Virus record (IMG/VR): IMGVR_UViG_3300031857_000258
Span: 1-53,428 of that record
Direction: 5' to 3' (one strand)
Origin: a virus
Taxonomy: Duplodnaviria > Caudoviricetes
Length of the DNA: 53,428 bases
In this document: positions 5,566 to 10,442 of the stretch, in pieces
Layout of the letters: every line of letters starts with the position of its first letter
Numbering within the stretch: the stretch's first letter is position 1
Notes under the pieces: model-generated
The model's database searches: none
Seen by the model: the letters and a program-made list of their open reading frames with translations, nothing else
What the model was told of the DNA's origin: nothing
Made by a program: the position numbers and the translations under genes

Positions 5566-5750
5566 TATGCTTGTATATCTACGTTTTGACCCTTAACATC
5601 AGGTCTGATTTGACCGTGTTTATCATAAAGGTATTGTACAATCTCTACAACTTTTTTATCGGTTGCAGGATCAATTAAAGTCTTATATACTGTTTTGCGA
5701 TATTGGTCATAAACCATATCCCAACTATTTGTTATGCTTTGTACTATCAT
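5565..5750 (-). CDS. Hypothetical protein
   Basis: 61-aa ORF with GGAG RBS between tRNAs. Confidence 0.6.
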   Translation of the reverse strand: MIVQSITNSWDMVYDQYRKTVYKTLIDPATDKKVVEIVQYLYDKHGQIRPDVKGQNVDIQA

Positions 5751-5762
5751 AGATATATTTCT

Positions 5763-5806
5763 CCATATAAAAACACACTAGACCCCGTTAGTATGTTTTT
5801 ATATGG
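5763..5806 (-). other. 18-bp hairpin starting at tRNA-Gln CCA (same family as 2667-2748)
   Basis: CCATATAAAAACATACTA-ACGGGGTC-TAGTGTGTTTTTATATGG. Confidence 0.55.
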
Positions 5807-5877
5807 CACCCGAGGTAGGAATCGAACCTACAATATCAGAGTCAAAGTCTGGTGTGTTACCACTACACTACTCGGGA
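5804..5877 (-). tRNA. tRNA-Gln(TTG), first gene of the array
   Basis: Loop CT TTG AC, G73, CCA. Confidence 0.92.
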
Positions 5878-5879
5878 TC

Positions 5880-5905
5880 AAATTACACTTAACTTTTTAA
5901 AGAAC
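5880..5905 (-). promoter_or_regulatory. boxA-like antitermination element (copy 1)
   Basis: GTTCTTTAAAAA just downstream of promoter; 26-nt exact repeat of 4250-4275. Confidence 0.6.
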
Positions 5906-5912
5906 TGTGTGT

Positions 5913-5964
5913 ATTGTACATGACTCCTAATCTTTGTCAATACACTTGTTGTAAGATTACAACA
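5913..5964 (-). promoter_or_regulatory. sigma70-type promoter of tRNA array with TGTTG-N8-CAACA palindrome
   Basis: TTGACA-16-TACAAT; palindrome 5947-5964. Confidence 0.7.
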
Positions 5965-5969
5965 CTTCC

Positions 5970-6006
5970 AAACAAAAAACCCTCAGATTTTTTAGGTCTG
6001 AGGGTT
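5970..6006 (-). terminator. Intrinsic terminator (attenuator 3:4 hairpin) ahead of tRNA array
   Basis: AACCCTCAGA-CCTAAAAAA-TCTGAGGGTT followed by TTTTGTTT. Confidence 0.85.
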
Positions 6007-6054
6007 GTGAAACTTTAGTTTACTTTTAAGGTTTACCTTGCTCCACTACCCCCA
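5999..6054 (-). promoter_or_regulatory. Predicted antiterminator helix (2:3)
   Basis: TGGGGGTAGTGGAGC (6054-6040) pairs with GTTTCACAACCCTCA (6013-5999) at 14 of 15 positions incl. G:U, overlapping the terminator 5' arm. Confidence 0.7.
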
Positions 6055-6143
6055 ACTCCGTGCGCCCATGACTGATTATCGCTACCAATAAATGGTGTGC
6101 GATACTCGCATGTTAACAAAGAGGGTTTCGATATGAGGAACAA
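6033..6143 (-). CDS. Putative attenuator leader peptide, 36 aa, containing all 20 amino acids
   Basis: GGAG-7nt-TTG start; MFLISKPSLLTCEYRTPFIGSDNQSWAHGVGGSGAR*; 32 distinct codons in 36. Confidence 0.75.
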   Translation of the reverse strand: MFLISKPSLLTCEYRTPFIGSDNQSWAHGVGGSGAR

Positions 6144-6224
6144 AATTTATCTCCGATAAAAATTAAATTGTAACATTATATAGGCTTCTTGGCAATAGAT
6201 TTGTGGTATTTTTTAAAAATATTT

Positions 6225-6950
6225 TTAAATATTTTCCCACTTACCATGTTCGATAGGCACCCAATGTTCTGGATCACGGACAATTTCAAATGTTGTTGGT
6301 GGCCATGTAATTGCGTGGCGTTGAAGTTGTGTCTGCACCAGATGTTCTGGATTATATTTGATACCTTCATTGTAGAATCTATCAAAATTAACTACAGCAT
6401 CAGCATAGATGGACATTGCATATGGGAGTCCAATTGCAAATTGGTCATTGAAGTTTGGTACATAGCCGTAACGTTGATTGTTTGGAATGTATATTGTGTT
6501 TGGTGATTTTAATAAACACTCATGTGCCAATTTCAAATCAATTGGCTCACTCAATCCTAAATCTGTGCGGGAACGAATTACCAAATCATATGCGTCAAGT
6601 TCTCTACGCCACAAATCACAATACTGAAGACACTTGTATTGTTGCCAAACATTTTTTGGTGTACTGTTATACGGCTCATATTCTTTAGGCAATTCTTCAA
6701 ATGTGGAAGGATCAAGAACTTCGATGAACTTGATTTTATACCAAGGAGGAAGATGTGCTTGCAGTTTGTCTCTGACTTCTCCCGCAGATTTTAAATCACA
6801 CCAATTTTTGGATATTTTTGGGTCCCATCCGAATTCTCTACGCCAGAATACGATGTATACATCGATAGCTGATTTGGTTAGATTTTGGAGTTGTGAATCA
6901 AAGTCTATTGAGAATCGTGGATTACCCGTTAGAAGTAGTGCTGTTTTCAT
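6225..6950 (-). CDS. Hypothetical protein, glycosyltransferase-like
   Basis: KTALLLTGNPR...YDLVIRSRTDL...FNDQFAIG...YNPEHL motif set seen in putative sugar-transferase families. Confidence 0.55.
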   Translation of the reverse strand: MKTALLLTGNPRFSIDFDSQLQNLTKSAIDVYIVFWRREFGWDPKISKNWCDLKSAGEVRDKLQAHLPPWYKIKFIEVLDPSTFEELPKEYEPYNSTPKNVWQQYKCLQYCDLWRRELDAYDLVIRSRTDLGLSEPIDLKLAHECLLKSPNTIYIPNNQRYGYVPNFNDQFAIGLPYAMSIYADAVVNFDRFYNEGIKYNPEHLVQTQLQRHAITWPPTTFEIVRDPEHWVPIEHGKWENI

Positions 6951-7461
6951 TTGTCAAGTATTTCCATTTTATATCTTCTTTTTTTATTGGTGCATCAGGA
7001 TTACTGATACCTTCAAATACATCCCATAATTCTTCTTTGACCGCAAACTTAGTCCACAGTCCAGTTTCTAAACTATATGCTTCCAATTCCCACGGATGTT
7101 GATAGTAATCTATAGCATCAGCATCAATTGAAATTCCTTTCCATTTGGAAAGAGTTTCGTTTGTTTCGCCGTGTGCAAACTGTTTGATATGAACCATTTC
7201 ATGTGCAAGTGTTTTTAATATTTCTGCGGCACCAAGCCATGGATGTACTTCAATCATGAATTCTCTTGCCTTGTTTGAGGCGTTATATTCTTCTATTGAA
7301 GCAAGTGCCCAAACAGTTAATTTTGGATTGAACTTGACTGTCAGATAAATGTTATCTCTTAGTCTTTTGGAGTGTATCAGATTTTGAGCGTAAAATTCTA
7401 CAGCCCTTTCAACAAAGGGTTTGAAATCTTTATCCGGACAGTTGAATATTCTGACCTTCAT
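6922..7461 (-). CDS. Zn metallopeptidase-like protein (HExxH)
   Basis: TLAHEMVHIKQ and downstream PWELEAY; likely start MKVRIF with GGAG RBS. Confidence 0.7.
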   Translation of the reverse strand: MKVRIFNCPDKDFKPFVERAVEFYAQNLIHSKRLRDNIYLTVKFNPKLTVWALASIEEYNASNKAREFMIEVHPWLGAAEILKTLAHEMVHIKQFAHGETNETLSKWKGISIDADAIDYYQHPWELEAYSLETGLWTKFAVKEELWDVFEGISNPDAPIKKEDIKWKYLTNENSTTSNG

Positions 7462-7482
7462 GTTATCTCCAGTTGCTATCAA

Positions 7483-7490
7483 TATTTAGT
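7483..7490 (-). promoter_or_regulatory. Possible T4-type late promoter
   Basis: ACTAAATA, variant of TATAAATA, upstream of peptidase gene. Confidence 0.45.
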
Positions 7491-7515
7491 CACTGGAACA
7501 TTTCATATTATGAAA

Positions 7516-7965
7516 TTAAACTTGAGTTATTTGTACACCCGATTTTTCGAGGAACGTAACGCCATCAGTATTCCGATAAGAGTTCCGATATAGAACACTG
7601 CTAATGCCACTTTGGTAGATAAGTTTGGCACAGTCCAAACATGGAGCGTGGGTAATGAACATAGTAGCACCCAAACCAGATTCTGTAGATTTAGCCAACT
7701 TGGCAATTGCGTTTGTTTCAGCATGAAGTACCTCAGGTTTGGTTTTCAATTCTTTAATTTCTCTTTGCGGAATACCATCAATTACGGCAACAACCAATTC
7801 TTCTTCACAGTTGTTGTCCCAACCGGAGGGCATTCCGTTGTAACCAATAGAAATGATGCGGTCATCTTTTACGACAATCGCACCAACATGAAGCCTACGT
7901 GCTGAAGACAGTTCTGCGAACACCTCAGCCGTTTTCATATACGCATCAATAAATTTTTGTTTCAT
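7516..7965 (-). CDS. cd: dCMP deaminase
   Basis: IISIGYNG, HAETNAI, HAPCLDCAK motifs. Confidence 0.92.
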   Translation of the reverse strand: MKQKFIDAYMKTAEVFAELSSARRLHVGAIVVKDDRIISIGYNGMPSGWDNNCEEELVVAVIDGIPQREIKELKTKPEVLHAETNAIAKLAKSTESGLGATMFITHAPCLDCAKLIYQSGISSVLYRNSYRNTDGVTFLEKSGVQITQV

Positions 7966-8375
7966 TTACTTTGTTCTGCTAAGATTTTATAACCTTTGCC
8001 TGTTGGGTGAACACCATCACCACTCATATGGTCTTTGGGTCTAGGTAGTACAGTATCACCATACTCACTTGCAATTTTCATTATTGCTTCGTGTGGTACA
8101 GGCTTTCGATCTTTACCTGGATCAATCCAAAAGACACGTTTACCTTTAATGGCTTCACGCATCTTTCTTAACTCGATTTCAGTTTTTACACCTTTGTGGT
8201 CATTAGCACCAAGACTGATAACAATATTTTCATAGGGTTTAGTTGTAGCCTGTGCGAGGTAATCTTTGTTCCATTGCCAAGAGTTCCAACCACCTCTTGA
8301 ATAACTAACACATTCAGGTCGATACATTGCTGTACCAACCGCAATACTGTCACCAATCACCATGCAATCAATCAT
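7962..8375 (-). CDS. SGNH/GDSL hydrolase
   Basis: GDSIA, SLGAND, DGVHP blocks. Confidence 0.85.
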   Translation of the reverse strand: MIDCMVIGDSIAVGTAMYRPECVSYSRGGWNSWQWNKDYLAQATTKPYENIVISLGANDHKGVKTEIELRKMREAIKGKRVFWIDPGKDRKPVPHEAIMKIASEYGDTVLPRPKDHMSGDGVHPTGKGYKILAEQSK

Positions 8376-8500
8376 AGAACCTCATAATCTTCTTTACCAA
8401 CACCACATTCAGGACATTCAAATGTGTCTGGCAATTCATCCCATTTACCTTCTACTGTTTCATCGTGGACATGTCCACATACAATACAAATGTGATCCAT
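8372..8500 (-). CDS. Rubredoxin (42 aa)
   Basis: Hand-translated MDHICIVCGHVHDE...WDELPDTFECPECGVGKEDY; two CxxC; TAATG coupling with rubrerythrin; missed by ORF track. Confidence 0.9.
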   Translation of the reverse strand: MDHICIVCGHVHDETVEGKWDELPDTFECPECGVGKEDYEVL

Positions 8501-8967
8501 TATAGTTTCTCCAATACTTGTTTATATGCATTAGCGTGACGTTCTTCAACTTTCTTCAAAGCATTAAAACGCTTATTTGCTTTAACTAGCAATGCTTTAA
8601 ATGCTTGAGCATGTTCATTAGATTCACGACCTTGTTCATTGAATTCTTTTACAGCCTCAATGTTTTGTTCTGCTTTTGCAATGTATTCAAATTGTGGATA
8701 CATCTCTGTGAATTCATATGTTTCACCTGCAATAGCAAGTTCTAAGCATTCTTTAGTAGTTGGTTTGCCCACTAAGAGTTCTAAATGTCCCCATGCATGT
8801 TTAATTTCTTGGTCGGCTGTTTCTTCAAAATGTTTTGCAACATCTTCAAAACCTTCAGCACGTGCCAATTTGGCAAAATAGCGATACTTGATGTGAGCCA
8901 TCGACTCACCTGCTAAGGCCTTTTCTAAGTTAGCCAGAGTTACAGATTTATGTTCTGTCATATTCAT
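8500..8967 (-). CDS. Rubrerythrin (ferritin-like diiron domain only)
   Basis: NLEKALAGESMAHIKY, EIKHA, GETYEFTEMYP, E..HA motifs. Confidence 0.9.
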   Translation of the reverse strand: MNMTEHKSVTLANLEKALAGESMAHIKYRYFAKLARAEGFEDVAKHFEETADQEIKHAWGHLELLVGKPTTKECLELAIAGETYEFTEMYPQFEYIAKAEQNIEAVKEFNEQGRESNEHAQAFKALLVKANKRFNALKKVEERHANAYKQVLEKL

Positions 8968-8980
8968 CCTTATTGTTAAA

Positions 8981-9055
8981 TGGTCCGGCGTGCAGGAATC
9001 GAACCCACATTCAAGGTGTAGAAGACCTTTGTATTATCCATTATACGAACGCCGG
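8981..9055 (-). tRNA. tRNA-Arg(TCT), solitary
   Basis: Cloverleaf, loop CT TCT AC, CCA. Confidence 0.9.
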
Positions 9056-9539: not shown

Positions 9540-10442
9540 TTAAACCTCAATAAATTGTAGTGTGAAATTATCTGCTTGGTCTTCGTAGTTAACATAACCA
9601 CGTGGATTAGCAACAATGCGTGTAGAACCAATCATGTAATCAAAATTATGATGAGTGTGTCCATGTGTCCACAGTTTGATTTGTGGATGATCCAAAATAA
9701 ATTCAGACAAGTCTGAACTGTAAGCACCATTCACCATCACATCGTTTTCATACTGTGGCTTCGTTGATTGCTTAGAAGGAGCATGATGACCAACAACGAT
9801 CCAATTTTTAAGTGAATGTGAGCCGATTGCTTCTTTCAATGCAACCAAAGTAGCCTTGTGTTCACTCACAGATTTTTCTGGAGAAAACTTAGCTGGACGT
9901 GTATGAAATTGTTGACTAACAATATTGCTGTAGTCTGTGCTTCCATCTTCTTTTGTACCATAAACAGGAGATTTAAAATGAACAACTTCATCACTGTCCT
10001 GAATGATACGATAATCGTTCATGTAACCTTTGATACCGTACAGTGTTTGTGGATCTTCTTTGTTCATGTCAGTCCATAGACTGCCACCAAAGAACATGTT
10101 ACCACCAATCTCAACGAATTCTTTTTCTAGAATGTGTAGATTGACCAGATAACCAAGATTATCACGGAGAGTTGTAAGAGACTTAGCAAAATCACCGTGA
10201 TAGTGTTCATGATTTCCGAGGATGTAAATAACATGAGGAAATCTTGCAGAACATTCTTGAAAGAATGTATGAATTTGGTTAGATTTATCATTCTCACCTC
10301 GGAGATTATAAGTATCACGGGTATAAACATCCTTGGCAACACAAATGTCACCAGACAAGATTAGAACTTCCGCATTTTCGGTGTTCTCCAAGGAAATTGT
10401 ACCAAATTCCAGGTGAACATCGGAACAGAGAGCGACTTTCAT
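9540..10442 (-). CDS. Calcineurin-like metallophosphoesterase
   Basis: SDVH, GD, GNHE, HHAP, HGHTH, NPRGY motifs. Confidence 0.9.
   Translation of the reverse strand: MKVALCSDVHLEFGTISLENTENAEVLILSGDICVAKDVYTRDTYNLRGENDKSNQIHTFFQECSARFPHVIYILGNHEHYHGDFAKSLTTLRDNLGYLVNLHILEKEFVEIGGNMFFGGSLWTDMNKEDPQTLYGIKGYMNDYRIIQDSDEVVHFKSPVYGTKEDGSTDYSNIVSQQFHTRPAKFSPEKSVSEHKATLVALKEAIGSHSLKNWIVVGHHAPSKQSTKPQYENDVMVNGAYSSDLSEFILDHPQIKLWTHGHTHHNFDYMIGSTRIVANPRGYVNYEDQADNFTLQFIEV

What the first reader, a model, noticed from the sequence alone, without database searches (positions are those of the whole stretch)
5970..6154. Pan-codon leader-peptide attenuator gating a complete phage tRNA array
Seen in sequence: directly upstream of the tRNA array is GGAG-7nt-TTG opening a 36-codon ORF, MFLISKPSLLTCEYRTPFIGSDNQSWAHGVGGSGAR*. 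It contains all 20 amino acids by codon 30 (Met only as initiator) and uses 32 different codons, including 5 of 6 Ser codons and typically rare ATA, TTA, CCC, GGG, AGG. Codons 30-35 (6054-6040) pair at 14/15 positions with 6013-5999, the 5' arm of a 10-bp terminator with U-tract (6006-5970), so the two helices are mutually exclusive. A further hairpin (TATCGC/GCGATA around ACCA/TGGT, codons 14-22) could act as a pause signal. Established: trp/his-type attenuators use this geometry but repeat codons for one amino acid. Inference: here the leader samples nearly the whole code. Complete translation covers region 2 and terminates; a stall at almost any codon frees the antiterminator and transcribes 29 tRNAs covering all amino acids. 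That would be a general sensor of tRNA depletion, e.g. by host anticodon nucleases or starvation. Caveats: sigma70 promoters also lie downstream of the terminator, so this would be an added, probably late input (CTAAATA at 7483, CCTATATAAT at 6184-6175); stalls at the last few codons may still mask region 2. I do not know of a description of such a system.
Basis: partly seen in the sequence, partly recalled or inferred. Interest (0 to 1): 0.97.

Follow-up and report, generated by a model that had tools for sequence, protein, structure and literature searches.

The report
Phage leader-peptide attenuator before tRNA array
A short, conserved, translated reading frame whose last codons can pair with the front arm of a transcription terminator sits just ahead of the tRNA gene cluster in a group of freshwater T4-like phages; it looks like a ribosome-operated transcription switch, though the tRNA genes also have strong promoters of their own.

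Summary
The 36-codon ORF (6143-6033, minus strand), its 20 amino-acid types, the terminator and the competing helix are all as described.

Relatives from IMG/VR and metagenomes gave 50 distinct peptides and 51 distinct transcripts. All keep an open 33-44-codon frame, a terminator, and a helix between the ORF's 3' end and the terminator's 5' arm. Both helices covary. The stop codon lies -6 to +4 nt from the end of region 2 in 46 of 51.

This supports a ribosome-dependent attenuator. 'Gating the array' is not supported. A near-consensus sigma70 promoter follows the terminator in all 67 relatives, more promoters lie inside the array, and two homologous loci lack the module.

'Pan-codon' fails at codon level. 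The peptide core (…EYRTPFIGSDNQSW…) is under purifying selection.

All-20 composition recurs in 34 of 50 peptides, even where the core diverged. A simple null expects 2.1 complete clusters of 12, against 7 observed, but descent confounds this. That reading stays open at about 0.2.

The parts
6167..6195 (-). Promoter P1 of the window variant: TTGCCA, 17-nt spacer, TACAAT, with TG before the -10 hexamer
   Evidence: scores it 10 of 12. In 16 of 44 distinct family variants the homologous promoter is TTGCCA-17-TATAAT, followed after 6 nt by the ATG. That spacing predicts a leaderless mRNA. The window variant has a shorter spacer and uses a new -10 hexamer, a leader and a Shine-Dalgarno site instead.
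6151..6154 (-). Shine-Dalgarno GGAG, 7 nt before the TTG start
   Evidence: Read directly. A 4-nt Shine-Dalgarno match 4-10 nt before the start codon is present in 26 of 44 distinct variants.
6033..6143 (-). Leader ORF of 36 codons plus stop, with a variable N-terminal part, a conserved core (codons 12-28) and a G-rich C-terminal part set by region 2
   Evidence: Searches confirm the ORF. The frame is open in all 51 distinct transcripts, and it is 33-38 aa long in 48 of them. In the core, differences at codon positions 1/2/3 are 31/27/167. In the C-terminal part they are 168/245/177.
6074..6107 (-). Central hairpin inside the ORF (codons 13-23); candidate RNA polymerase pause hairpin
   Evidence: RNAalifold predicts 12 pairs, and 96.9% of cells are paired. 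One pair changes A-U to G-C through two synonymous changes. In the divergent L225 a G-C pair becomes A-U through a change that turns Arg into His.
6040..6055 (-). Region 2: the 5' strand of the antiterminator, covering the last codons of the ORF
   Evidence: Searches put the duplex with region 3 at -21.8 kcal/mol in the window. The duplex beats shuffles in 48 of 51 transcripts, and the pairs covary.
5998..6013 (-). Region 3: pairs either with region 2 (antiterminator) or, through 6006-5997, with region 4 (terminator)
   Evidence: Alignment columns 94 and 97 covary with partners in both helices.
5974..6006 (-). Intrinsic terminator: 10-bp stem (6006-5997 with 5987-5978), 9-nt loop and T-run
   Evidence: A terminator is present in 40 of 40 distinct transcripts of the first set. 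On the wider alignment, 86.4% of cells are paired and the covariation score is 0.217 against 0.107 in shuffles.
5947..5964 (-). Palindrome TGTTGTA-ATCT-TACAACA; it belongs to the downstream promoter cassette, not to the attenuator
   Evidence: Read. A GTTG…CAAC inverted repeat appears in every relative's sequence printed, and in L221 and L224, which lack the ORF. It is repeated inside the array next to the promoter at 4332.
5913..5940 (-). Promoter P2: TTGACA, 16-nt spacer, TACAAT
   Evidence: scores it 11 of 12. It is present in 64 of 67 relatives by strict pattern and as a TTGCCA variant in the other 3.
5804..5905 (-). Conserved P2 transcript leader (5905-5880), followed by tRNA-Gln (5877-5804), the first gene of the array
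   Evidence: tRNA-Gln is the first tRNA in 49 of 67 relatives. In the other 18, no tRNA falls within the 330 nt examined.

Best explanation
This is a self-contained, ribosome-operated transcription attenuator module. It consists of promoter P1, a 33-44-codon translated leader, an internal hairpin, an antiterminator and a terminator. It sits between an upstream gene and the first promoter cassette of the tRNA cluster in a clade of freshwater T4-like phages.

Shown by comparison:
- The frame is kept open, and it has a working start of one of two kinds: a leaderless ATG at the predicted transcript start, or a Shine-Dalgarno site with TTG, GTG or ATG.
- The last codons (region 2) are complementary to a stretch (region 3) that includes the terminator's 5' arm. 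Both alternative helices covary.
- The stop codon sits on or next to region 2.

Inferred mechanism:
- A ribosome that runs to the stop codon covers region 2. The terminator then forms, and transcripts from P1 (and from upstream promoters) end at about 5974.
- If the ribosome is absent, late or held up within roughly the first 26 codons, region 2 pairs with region 3 as soon as region 3 is made. The terminator cannot form, and transcription continues through the P2 cassette into tRNA-Gln and beyond.
- The central hairpin may pause the polymerase until a ribosome arrives.

The input is therefore the progress of translation on this leader, and the output is extra transcription into the tRNA cluster on top of what P2 gives. 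The core of the peptide is under selection as a peptide. It either modulates ribosome progress or has a second role after release. Which of these applies is not settled.
For: Conservation of the parts:
- The ORF is open in all 51 distinct transcripts. Lengths are 33-38 aa in 48 of 51.
- Two start architectures keep translation possible: 16 leaderless, 26 Shine-Dalgarno-led and 2 unclear, of 44.
- The core shows third-position bias: 31/27/167 differences at codon positions 1/2/3, and 147 synonymous against 48 nonsynonymous codon differences.
- A terminator is present in 40 of 40 transcripts.

The 2:3 helix:
- Duplex energies run from -12.5 to -21.8 kcal/mol and beat shuffles in 48 of 51.
- Own partners average -18.5 kcal/mol against -14.7 for partners from other variants. 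0 of 20,000 permutations reach that difference.
- On a structure-blind MAFFT alignment, 79.2% of cells are paired, against 31-56% when the partner columns are slid. The covariation score is 0.218 against 0.130, reached by 0 of 500 shuffles.
- The terminator (3:4) has 86.4% of cells paired and scores 0.217 against 0.107, reached by 0 of 500 shuffles.
- L034 and L071 differ by a fully compensated A-U to G-C change.
- The divergent L225 keeps all three helices with different sequences.

Geometry and folds:
- The stop codon is -6 to +4 nt from the last paired base of region 2 in 46 of 51. The distance from the stop to the end of the T-run is 52-65 nt.
- In folds of the nascent RNA up to the terminator loop, 2:3 forms in 46 of 51 with no ribosome, in 47 of 51 with a ribosome held on the core, and in 5 of 51 with a ribosome on the stop codon.
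- The C-terminal peptide varies without third-position bias (168/245/177), as expected if the RNA rather than the peptide is constrained there.
Against: - No transcript or ribosome data exist. The two RNA-library runs found are short contigs and may hold DNA.
- At equilibrium the full transcript prefers the terminator in 47 of 51 even without a ribosome. With a ribosome held on the core, the antiterminator is the minimum-energy fold in only 14 of 51. The switch would have to be kinetic.
- A region 1:2 helix, needed for the classical four-region scheme, is not better than shuffles (11 of 51).
- P2 and at least four further sigma70-like promoters drive the tRNAs anyway. The gain from read-through may be small.
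- L221 and L224 do without the module.
- The link to the tRNA cluster rests on a single inherited gene order, not on independent associations.
- In one subgroup (L029, L038, L062 types) no convincing sigma70 P1 is found.
- Most relatives were found with patterns that required the core residues. This inflates the apparent invariance of the core.
Confidence: 0.6

Rival explanations
1. The leader is selected to hold one codon for (nearly) every amino acid, so that a hungry codon of any kind, such as after tRNA cleavage by a host nuclease or starvation, stalls the ribosome before region 2 and drives read-through into the phage's tRNA genes.
For: - 34 of 50 distinct peptides of 33-44 residues hold all 20 types, and 13 more hold 19.
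- The consensus 17-residue core has 16 types. It lies where a stall would leave region 2 free: region 2 starts 0-12 nt after the Trp codon, 5 nt or more in 50 of 51.
- With residues equal to the consensus core held fixed and all others redrawn from the family's own variable-position composition, 2.10 of 12 clusters are expected to be complete. 7 are (P = 0.0003). With proteome composition, 1.05 are expected (P = 0.00001).
- Completeness survives core divergence. L225 has six core changes yet 20 types in 39 residues, with Arg, His and Ile appearing at other positions. The L050 type has Cys, Glu, Tyr and Ala in permuted positions. His appears near the N-terminus in several variants that lack it after Trp.
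- Phage tRNAs are reported to counter tRNA-targeting defences (search listing and abstract starts only: PMC10264068, PMC11464382, PMC11555353).
Against: - The core is conserved in order as well as in content, with synonymous changes dominating.
- The best-kept residues (Thr, Pro, Phe, Ile, Gly) are types that also occur elsewhere in most peptides, so redundancy does not relax them.
- Internal Met is present in only 3 of 50 peptides, so elongator tRNA-Met is not sampled.
- 16 of 50 peptides lack 1-4 types, and L022 has only 16 types.
- No codon, as opposed to amino acid, is conserved beyond synonymous choice.
- The nulls ignore descent from a complete ancestor.
- The property was noticed after the fact.
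- One codon per amino acid gives low sensitivity compared with known attenuators (recalled knowledge).
- P2 makes the output modest.
Confidence: 0.2
2. The conserved core is a programmed arrest or slow-down sequence that acts inside the ribosome, in the manner of SecM, TnaC or SpeFL. It sets read-through in response to one particular ligand, factor or state rather than to tRNA supply in general.
For: - There is strong purifying selection on the order of the core residues while the flanks drift.
- The core lies 0-12 nt upstream of region 2 (5 nt or more in 50 of 51), so the position of an arrest would decide whether region 2 is free.
- The attenuator structure itself is supported.
Against: - The peptide matches no known arrest peptide or family: Pfam and PHROGs give 0 hits, and the Atlas gives no usable hit.
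- Core residues do change in L194 (Arg to Cys, Gln to Leu, His to Pro) and in L225 (Phe-Ile to Leu-Asn).
- No candidate ligand is known.
- Arrest cannot be tested with these tools.
Confidence: 0.15
3. This is an ordinary stand-alone small gene with its own promoter and terminator, encoding a micropeptide that acts in trans. The terminator simply ends the gene and insulates the tRNA promoters. The pairing of the ORF's end with the terminator arm serves the message itself, for example its stability or translation, and does not regulate the tRNAs.
For: - The module is separable. L221 and L224 have the same neighbours without it.
- It carries its own promoter and terminator.
- The core evolves like a protein.
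- The tRNA cluster has its own promoters.
- Leader peptides and released attenuator RNAs with functions in trans are on record (abstract starts only: PMC7298713, PMC6614838).
Against: - It does not explain why a helix that competes with the terminator is kept by covariation.
- It does not explain why the stop codon stays on region 2.
- It does not explain why the C-terminal residues follow the RNA rather than a peptide constraint.
- No relative with a known function was found.
Confidence: 0.2
4. This is a structured non-coding RNA of the tRNA region, and the reading frame is incidental.
For: - The fold of the 198-nt stretch is more stable than shuffles (z = -3.44).
- The RNA helices are conserved.
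Against: - The frame is open in 51 of 51 transcripts.
- Two independent ways of starting translation are maintained.
- The core shows third-position bias.
- No Rfam family matches (best hit 22.5 bits against a gathering score of 50).
Confidence: 0.03

Closest known systems
Leader-peptide (ribosome-dependent) transcription attenuators of amino-acid operons (trp, his, leu, thr, pheA, ilv)
   Same: Both have a short translated leader, an intrinsic terminator and an antiterminator helix that competes with it. In both, the antiterminator is masked by a ribosome that reaches the stop codon. The distance from the stop to the U-tract is of the same order (52-65 nt here).
   Different: - The leader has no run of codons for one amino acid. 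It is maximally diverse instead.
- The peptide core is conserved as a sequence.
- A 1:2 helix is not demonstrable.
- The downstream genes are tRNAs with their own strong promoter.
- The host is a phage.
- In 16 of 44 variants the message is predicted to be leaderless.
Leader-ORF attenuators that respond to slowed translation in general, such as antibiotic-responsive leaders upstream of resistance genes found by Term-seq (recalled from the literature, not read here)
   Same: The logic is the same: a ribosome held up on a short leader frees an antiterminator and switches on genes that relieve the translation problem.
   Different: Here the genes downstream are tRNAs, the element is viral, and no inducing condition is known. 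None of this was tested.
Sinorhizobium trpL attenuator, whose released RNA (rnTrpL) and leader peptide (peTrpL) act in trans (abstract starts seen: PMC6614838, PMC7298713)
   Same: It is a precedent for a leader peptide and a terminated attenuator RNA that have functions of their own. That would fit the conserved core here.
   Different: There is no sequence likeness, and a function in trans was not tested here.
Nascent-chain arrest peptides (SecM, TnaC, SpeFL; recalled)
   Same: Both are short conserved peptides placed just upstream of an RNA element whose state depends on where the ribosome stands.
   Different: No sequence match was found, and arrest has not been shown.

Membership tests
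Ribosome-dependent leader-peptide attenuator (trp/his type) | Short ORF with a usable translation start upstream of the terminator | tested here: met
   The frame is open in 51 of 51 transcripts. Of 44 variants, 26 have a Shine-Dalgarno site 4-10 nt before the start and 16 have a leaderless ATG 6 nt after the -10 hexamer. The core shows third-position bias. Translation itself has not been observed.
Ribosome-dependent leader-peptide attenuator (trp/his type) | Intrinsic terminator after the leader | tested here: met
   A terminator is present in 40 of 40 transcripts, and the pairs covary.
Ribosome-dependent leader-peptide attenuator (trp/his type) | Antiterminator helix that excludes the terminator and is covered by a ribosome at the stop codon | tested here: met
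   Searches support the helix. The stop codon lies -6 to +4 nt from the end of region 2 in 46 of 51. In nascent-RNA folds, 2:3 forms in 46 of 51 without a ribosome and in 5 of 51 with a ribosome on the stop.
Ribosome-dependent leader-peptide attenuator (trp/his type) | Run of regulatory codons for the cognate amino acid | tested here: not met
   The window ORF has 32 distinct codons of 36. Across the family, the mean copy number per residue type is near 1 for most types.
Ribosome-dependent leader-peptide attenuator (trp/his type) | Region 1:2 helix (anti-antiterminator or pause hairpin) | tested here: inconclusive
   The 1:2 duplex beats shuffles in only 11 of 51. A separate central hairpin is conserved. 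In full-length folds region 2 often pairs upstream.
Ribosome-dependent leader-peptide attenuator (trp/his type) | Downstream genes depend on read-through | tested here: not met
   P2 lies between the terminator and the first tRNA in 67 of 67 relatives. Further promoters lie inside the array. L221 and L224 lack the module.
Ribosome-dependent leader-peptide attenuator (trp/his type) | Read-through rises when the ribosome stalls | not testable with these tools
   This needs reporters, Term-seq or coupled transcription-translation in vitro.
Nascent-chain arrest peptide | Conserved peptide motif that stalls its own ribosome | not testable with these tools
   The motif is conserved. Stalling has not been observed.
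Kazal-type inhibitor domain | About 50 residues with six cysteines, and significant sequence match | tested here: not met
   The profile search of PDB sequences gives ovomucoid third domain only at E = 0.5-1.4, below a PilZ-domain protein at E = 0.2. Across the family the mean is 1.22 Cys per peptide.
Any Rfam RNA family | Score at or above the gathering threshold | tested here: not met
   The best hit is 22.5 bits against a gathering score of 50. Only tRNAs pass in the whole window.

The most novel reading that the evidence does not exclude
The leader is a general hungry-codon sensor. By carrying about one codon for each of 19 amino acids ahead of the antiterminator strand, it turns the loss of any one charged tRNA into extra transcription of the phage's own near-complete tRNA set. 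Such a loss could come from a host anticodon nuclease or from starvation. This would be a feedback loop that guards viral translation. The recurrence of all-20 composition in diverged variants (L225, the L050 type, the L034 type) would be its evolutionary signature.
Probability: 0.2. Interest if true: 0.95.

Novelty: new variant of a known kind. Interest (0 to 1): 0.74.

Why it matters
Ribosome-operated attenuators are textbook devices of bacterial amino-acid operons. I found none described for a phage tRNA cluster. The searches were made, which used terms for leader peptide, attenuator, antiterminator, small ORF, phage and tRNA genes. Only listings and abstract starts were seen.

This one is conserved in 51 distinct transcripts, with covariation in both alternative helices, so the RNA switch is about as well supported as sequence alone allows. 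It links the state of translation in the infected cell to transcription next to viral tRNA genes, at a time when phage tRNAs are being recognised as a counter to tRNA-cleaving defences.

The promoters are sigma70-like and the module is under 250 nt. It can therefore be tested directly in laboratory E. coli reporters, even though the phage's host is unknown.

It also offers a clean test case for an unusual idea: that selection can act on the amino-acid repertoire of a peptide rather than on its fold.

Tried and rejected
Searches that found nothing useful:
- DNA search of 50,697 phage records with the 381-nt region gave no match.
- Rfam at a permissive threshold gave nothing near a gathering score. 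Over the whole window only tRNAs pass.
- PHROGs and Pfam gave 0 families for the peptide. The ESM Atlas gave no usable hit.
- The profile search of 1.84 billion representatives gave 8 hits with E up to 0.001. Five are family members. The other three are longer repeat proteins that resemble the core (P0005, P0007, P0008), which I take as a chance or convergent motif.
- In the PDB sequence search the best E-value is 0.2 (a PilZ-domain protein). Ovomucoid scores 0.5-1.4. Neither is significant.
- The one hit in genome contigs (L226) lies in an unrelated longer frame and is a chance hit.
- Four of the 51 metagenome pattern hits are outside the family: L144, L149, L158 and L163.

Tests that did not support a feature, or are weak:
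- The 1:2 and 1:4 helices are not better than shuffles: 11 of 51 and 7 of 51.
- The column-shuffle test of completeness gave 30 of 44 observed against 10.9 expected, with 0 of 5000 shuffles reaching the observed value. Shuffling breaks clades, so I set it aside as confounded by descent. The null is better but still ignores descent.
- His relocation, counted by lineage, is about 5 of 10 against 1 of 8. That is my own tally and it is not significant.

Sequencing runs:
- There are 20 holders, of which only two are RNA libraries, both with small shares. All are contigs.
- Laid on the window, one 109-nt contig of X19 spans 6036-5946 across the terminator. It may be DNA or come from a relative. It says nothing about starts, ends or levels.

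- Complex prediction and structure prediction were not used. No binding claim is made.
Full report
**What the window is.** All long ORFs lie on the minus strand. The major capsid protein is 64% identical to those of Melnitz and Mosig, which are T4-like phages. The contig is the whole assembly held. It is therefore a T4-like myovirus fragment from an environmental sample. Runs that hold it are mostly lake and aquatic metagenomes. Late-promoter-like motifs are strongly strand-biased: NATAAATA occurs 10 times on the minus strand and 0 on the plus strand, and CTAAATA 4 and 0.

**The observation.**
- GGAG at 6154-6151, a 7-nt spacer, and TTG at 6143.
- A 36-codon ORF that ends at 6033, with 32 distinct codons and all 20 residue types by codon 30.
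- A 14-of-15 pairing of 6054-6040 with 6013-5999 (11 Watson-Crick, 3 G-U), which one more pair extends.
- A 10-bp terminator with a 9-nt loop and a T-run.
- An internal TATCGC/GCGATA hairpin.

Two corrections apply. One of the 29 tRNAs lies upstream of the element, and the 29 cover 19 amino acids, with no tRNA-Tyr in the window.

All 20 types in 36 codons is rare. The probability is 0.0007 under codon usage and 0.003 under base composition, and 0.13% of 36-residue windows in real genes reach it. Still, 3 of 260 short six-frame ORFs in this window also reach it. The single sequence proves little.

**Relatives.**
- A search with the upstream 241-aa protein, which is blind to the element, gave 23 IMG/VR loci at 64-94% identity. 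Twenty of them reach the region, and all 20 have a small ORF, a terminator and a second promoter.
- Searches with the peptide alignment (59 loci) and with a degenerate pattern for the invariant residues widened the set. The pattern gave 58 viral and 51 metagenome stretches, of which 4 are unrelated.
- These pattern searches required the core residues, so they overstate how invariant the core is.
- Three further routes do not have that bias:
  - The promoter-cassette motif found L194, whose core has Arg to Cys, Gln to Leu and His to Pro.
  - A profile search of 1.84 billion proteins found P0006. Its DNA is L225, which has six core changes.
  - An alignment of the upstream protein found L221 and L224, which lack the module altogether.
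- In all there are 50 distinct peptides and 51 distinct transcripts.

**The ORF is a real coding frame.**
- It is open in all 51 transcripts and is 33-38 codons long in 48 of them.
- Translation can start in two different ways.
  - In 16 of 44 variants a TTGCCA-17-TATAAT promoter is followed after 6 nt by ATG. The transcript should therefore begin at the start codon.
  - In 26 of 44, the window included, there is a leader with a Shine-Dalgarno site and a TTG, GTG or ATG start.
- The window type has a shortened promoter spacer and uses a new -10 hexamer further down. That both promoter and start were re-made argues that translation matters.
- In the core, differences fall 31/27/167 on codon positions 1/2/3. 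In the N-terminal part they fall 280/317/373, and in the C-terminal part 168/245/177 (pairs are not independent, and the core figure is inflated by the way relatives were found).

So the core evolves as a peptide, the N-terminal part is loosely constrained, and the C-terminal part follows something other than the peptide.

**That something is RNA.**
- The last codons (region 2) pair with a stretch (region 3) made of about 7 nt plus the terminator's 5' arm.
- The duplex is -12.5 to -21.8 kcal/mol and beats shuffles in 48 of 51 transcripts.
- Among 17 region-3 types, each region 2 prefers its own partner: -18.5 against -14.7 kcal/mol, reached by 0 of 20,000 permutations.
- On a MAFFT alignment made without regard to structure:
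  - The 2:3 helix has 79.2% of cells paired, against 31-56% when slid. It has 29 cells changed on both sides against 11.9 expected, and a covariation score of 0.218 against 0.130, reached by 0 of 500 shuffles.
  - The terminator has 86.4% paired and scores 0.217 against 0.107, reached by 0 of 500 shuffles.
- The same region-3 columns covary with both partners.
- Examples can be read directly. L005 has a different terminator and a perfectly matching 12-nt region 2. L034 and L071 differ by a compensated A-U to G-C pair.
- L225 keeps the 2:3 helix (-18.7 kcal/mol), the terminator and the central hairpin, all with altered sequences. One hairpin pair is kept through a change that turns Arg into His.
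- The central hairpin is otherwise nearly invariant: 96.9% of cells are paired, with one compensated pair.

**Geometry.**
- The stop codon lies -6 to +4 nt from the last paired base of region 2 in 46 of 51 transcripts.
- Region 2 begins 0-12 nt after the Trp codon.
- The T-run ends 52-65 nt after the stop.
- In folds of the nascent RNA, cut at the terminator loop, the 2:3 helix is in the minimum-energy structure in 46 of 51 with no ribosome. It is there in 47 of 51 with 30 nt masked around the core, and in 5 of 51 with 30 nt masked at the stop codon.

This is the behaviour expected of a ribosome-dependent attenuator.

**Evidence against a simple switch.**
- For the complete transcript at equilibrium, the terminator is preferred in 47 of 51 even without a ribosome. 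With the core masked, the antiterminator wins in only 14 of 51. The decision would have to be made kinetically, as is accepted for the trp attenuator (recalled knowledge).
- A region 1:2 helix is not better than chance (11 of 51).

**What it controls.**
- Right after the terminator come a palindrome, a near-consensus promoter P2 (TTGACA-16-TACAAT) and a conserved 26-nt leader. tRNA-Gln follows.
- P2 is present in all 67 distinct relatives: 64 by strict pattern and 3 as TTGCCA variants.
- The same cassette of palindrome, promoter and leader recurs inside the array, next to the promoter at 4332. Further sigma70-like promoters lie at 3828, 3405 and 332.
- L221 and L224 have the upstream gene followed directly by the cassette and tRNAs.

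So the module is an add-on. Its read-through can only add to P2-driven transcription, or matter when P2 is off. The association with tRNAs is one inherited gene order, not repeated independent evidence. In one subgroup I could not find a sigma70-type P1. A CTAAATA late-type motif lies upstream there. In the window, a CTAAATA at 7489 could send late transcripts through the two upstream genes into the module.

**The pan-codon idea.** At codon level it fails.

At amino-acid level the picture is mixed.

For it:
- 34 of 50 distinct peptides have all 20 types and 13 have 19. The consensus 17-residue core has 16 types.
- I held residues equal to the consensus core fixed and redrew all others from the family's own variable-position composition. 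Under that null, 2.10 of 12 sequence clusters should be complete, and 7 are (P = 0.0003).
- The signal comes from clusters whose core lost types yet are complete. These are L225 (expected 0.02), the L050 type (0.01) and the L034 type (0.06).

Against it:
- The null ignores descent.
- The best-conserved residues (Thr, Pro, Phe, Ile, Gly) are types present elsewhere in most peptides.
- Internal Met occurs in 3 of 50 peptides.
- 16 of 50 peptides are incomplete, down to 16 types in L022.

I rate this reading at about 0.2. A specific role of the core, either inside the ribosome or as a released micropeptide, fits the order conservation at least as well.

**What the peptide resembles.** It matches nothing significantly.
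- Pfam and PHROGs give no family, and the Atlas gives nothing usable.
- The profile's best matches to solved structures are a PilZ-domain protein at E = 0.2 and the ovomucoid third domain at E = 0.5-1.4, around its …EYR-P-x-C-GSDN… stretch.
- In the large library, a Kazal-like repeat protein (P0005) and a repeat protein with …FAIGLDNQVWAH… (P0007) score through their repeats.

I take these as leads at most.

**Not available.**
- RNA evidence is lacking. The only RNA-library holders are short contigs that may be DNA.
- Literature searches returned no description of such an element. I saw only listings and the starts of abstracts.

**Verdict.** This is a conserved, translated leader with a covarying terminator/antiterminator pair. 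It works like a ribosome-dependent attenuator, but it is not a member of the amino-acid-operon class. It has no regulatory codon run, and the downstream genes have their own promoter. It is a new variant of a known kind, and the question of what it senses is open and testable.

Noticed in passing
window 5964-5880 and about 4360-4245 (minus strand); also L221:2250-2330 and L224:2250-2330: A promoter cassette recurs inside the tRNA array and in relatives. It consists of a GTTG…CAAC palindrome, a TTGACA-16/17-TATAAT promoter, sometimes an ATTGAGAAATCAAT hairpin, and then a conserved 26-nt leader before a tRNA. In L041 and L060 the palindrome arms differ but still pair. This suggests an RNA hairpin, or an operator that co-evolves with its binding protein.
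   Followed up: partly
window 1-9055: The 29 tRNAs cover 19 amino acids. tRNA-Tyr is missing here but is present in the relative L225 (2731-2814). The array reaches the contig end, so it may continue. One tRNA (Arg-tct, 9055-8981) lies apart, upstream of the element.
   Followed up: partly
window 5135-5226; L225:6938-7029: ARAGORN calls a 92-nt tRNA-Ile with anticodon tat in both phages. That is unusually long for tRNA-Ile, so it may carry an insertion or be mis-assigned.
   Followed up: no
L224:2336-2900: In this relative the first tRNA-like sequence is followed by an ORF with Cys-rich and HNH-like motifs, and then by a second similar tRNA 5' part. This looks like a homing-endonuclease insertion in or next to a tRNA gene.
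   Followed up: no
window, minus strand: 52091, 47127, 40480, 35536, 34990, 33199, 30880, 30235, 28369, 11420 (NATAAATA); 25669, 12013, 9068, 7489 (CTAAATA): Late-promoter-like motifs occur only on the coding strand (14 against 0), mostly just upstream of structural genes. The one at 7489 could drive late transcription through the two genes upstream of the attenuator.
   Followed up: partly
window 1583-2071, 7516-7965, 7962-8375, 8500-8967, 9540-10442 (minus strand): Genes in and next to the tRNA region include an RNase H-like protein inside the array, a dCMP deaminase, a partial GDSL-hydrolase-like protein, a rubrerythrin/ferritin-like protein and a metallophosphoesterase.
   Followed up: no
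P0005, P0007; PDB hits: The peptide core resembles the …Y-x-P-x-C-GSD-N… stretch of Kazal-type domains and a …FAIGLDNQVWAH… repeat of a 904-aa protein. Against single solved Kazal chains the match is not significant (E = 0.5 or more).
   Followed up: partly
window 5946-6036, run X19: A 109-nt contig from an RNA-labelled virome library spans from the ORF's stop codon across the terminator towards P2, and it carries a relative's sequence beyond that. It may be DNA, and it shows nothing about transcript ends.
   Followed up: no
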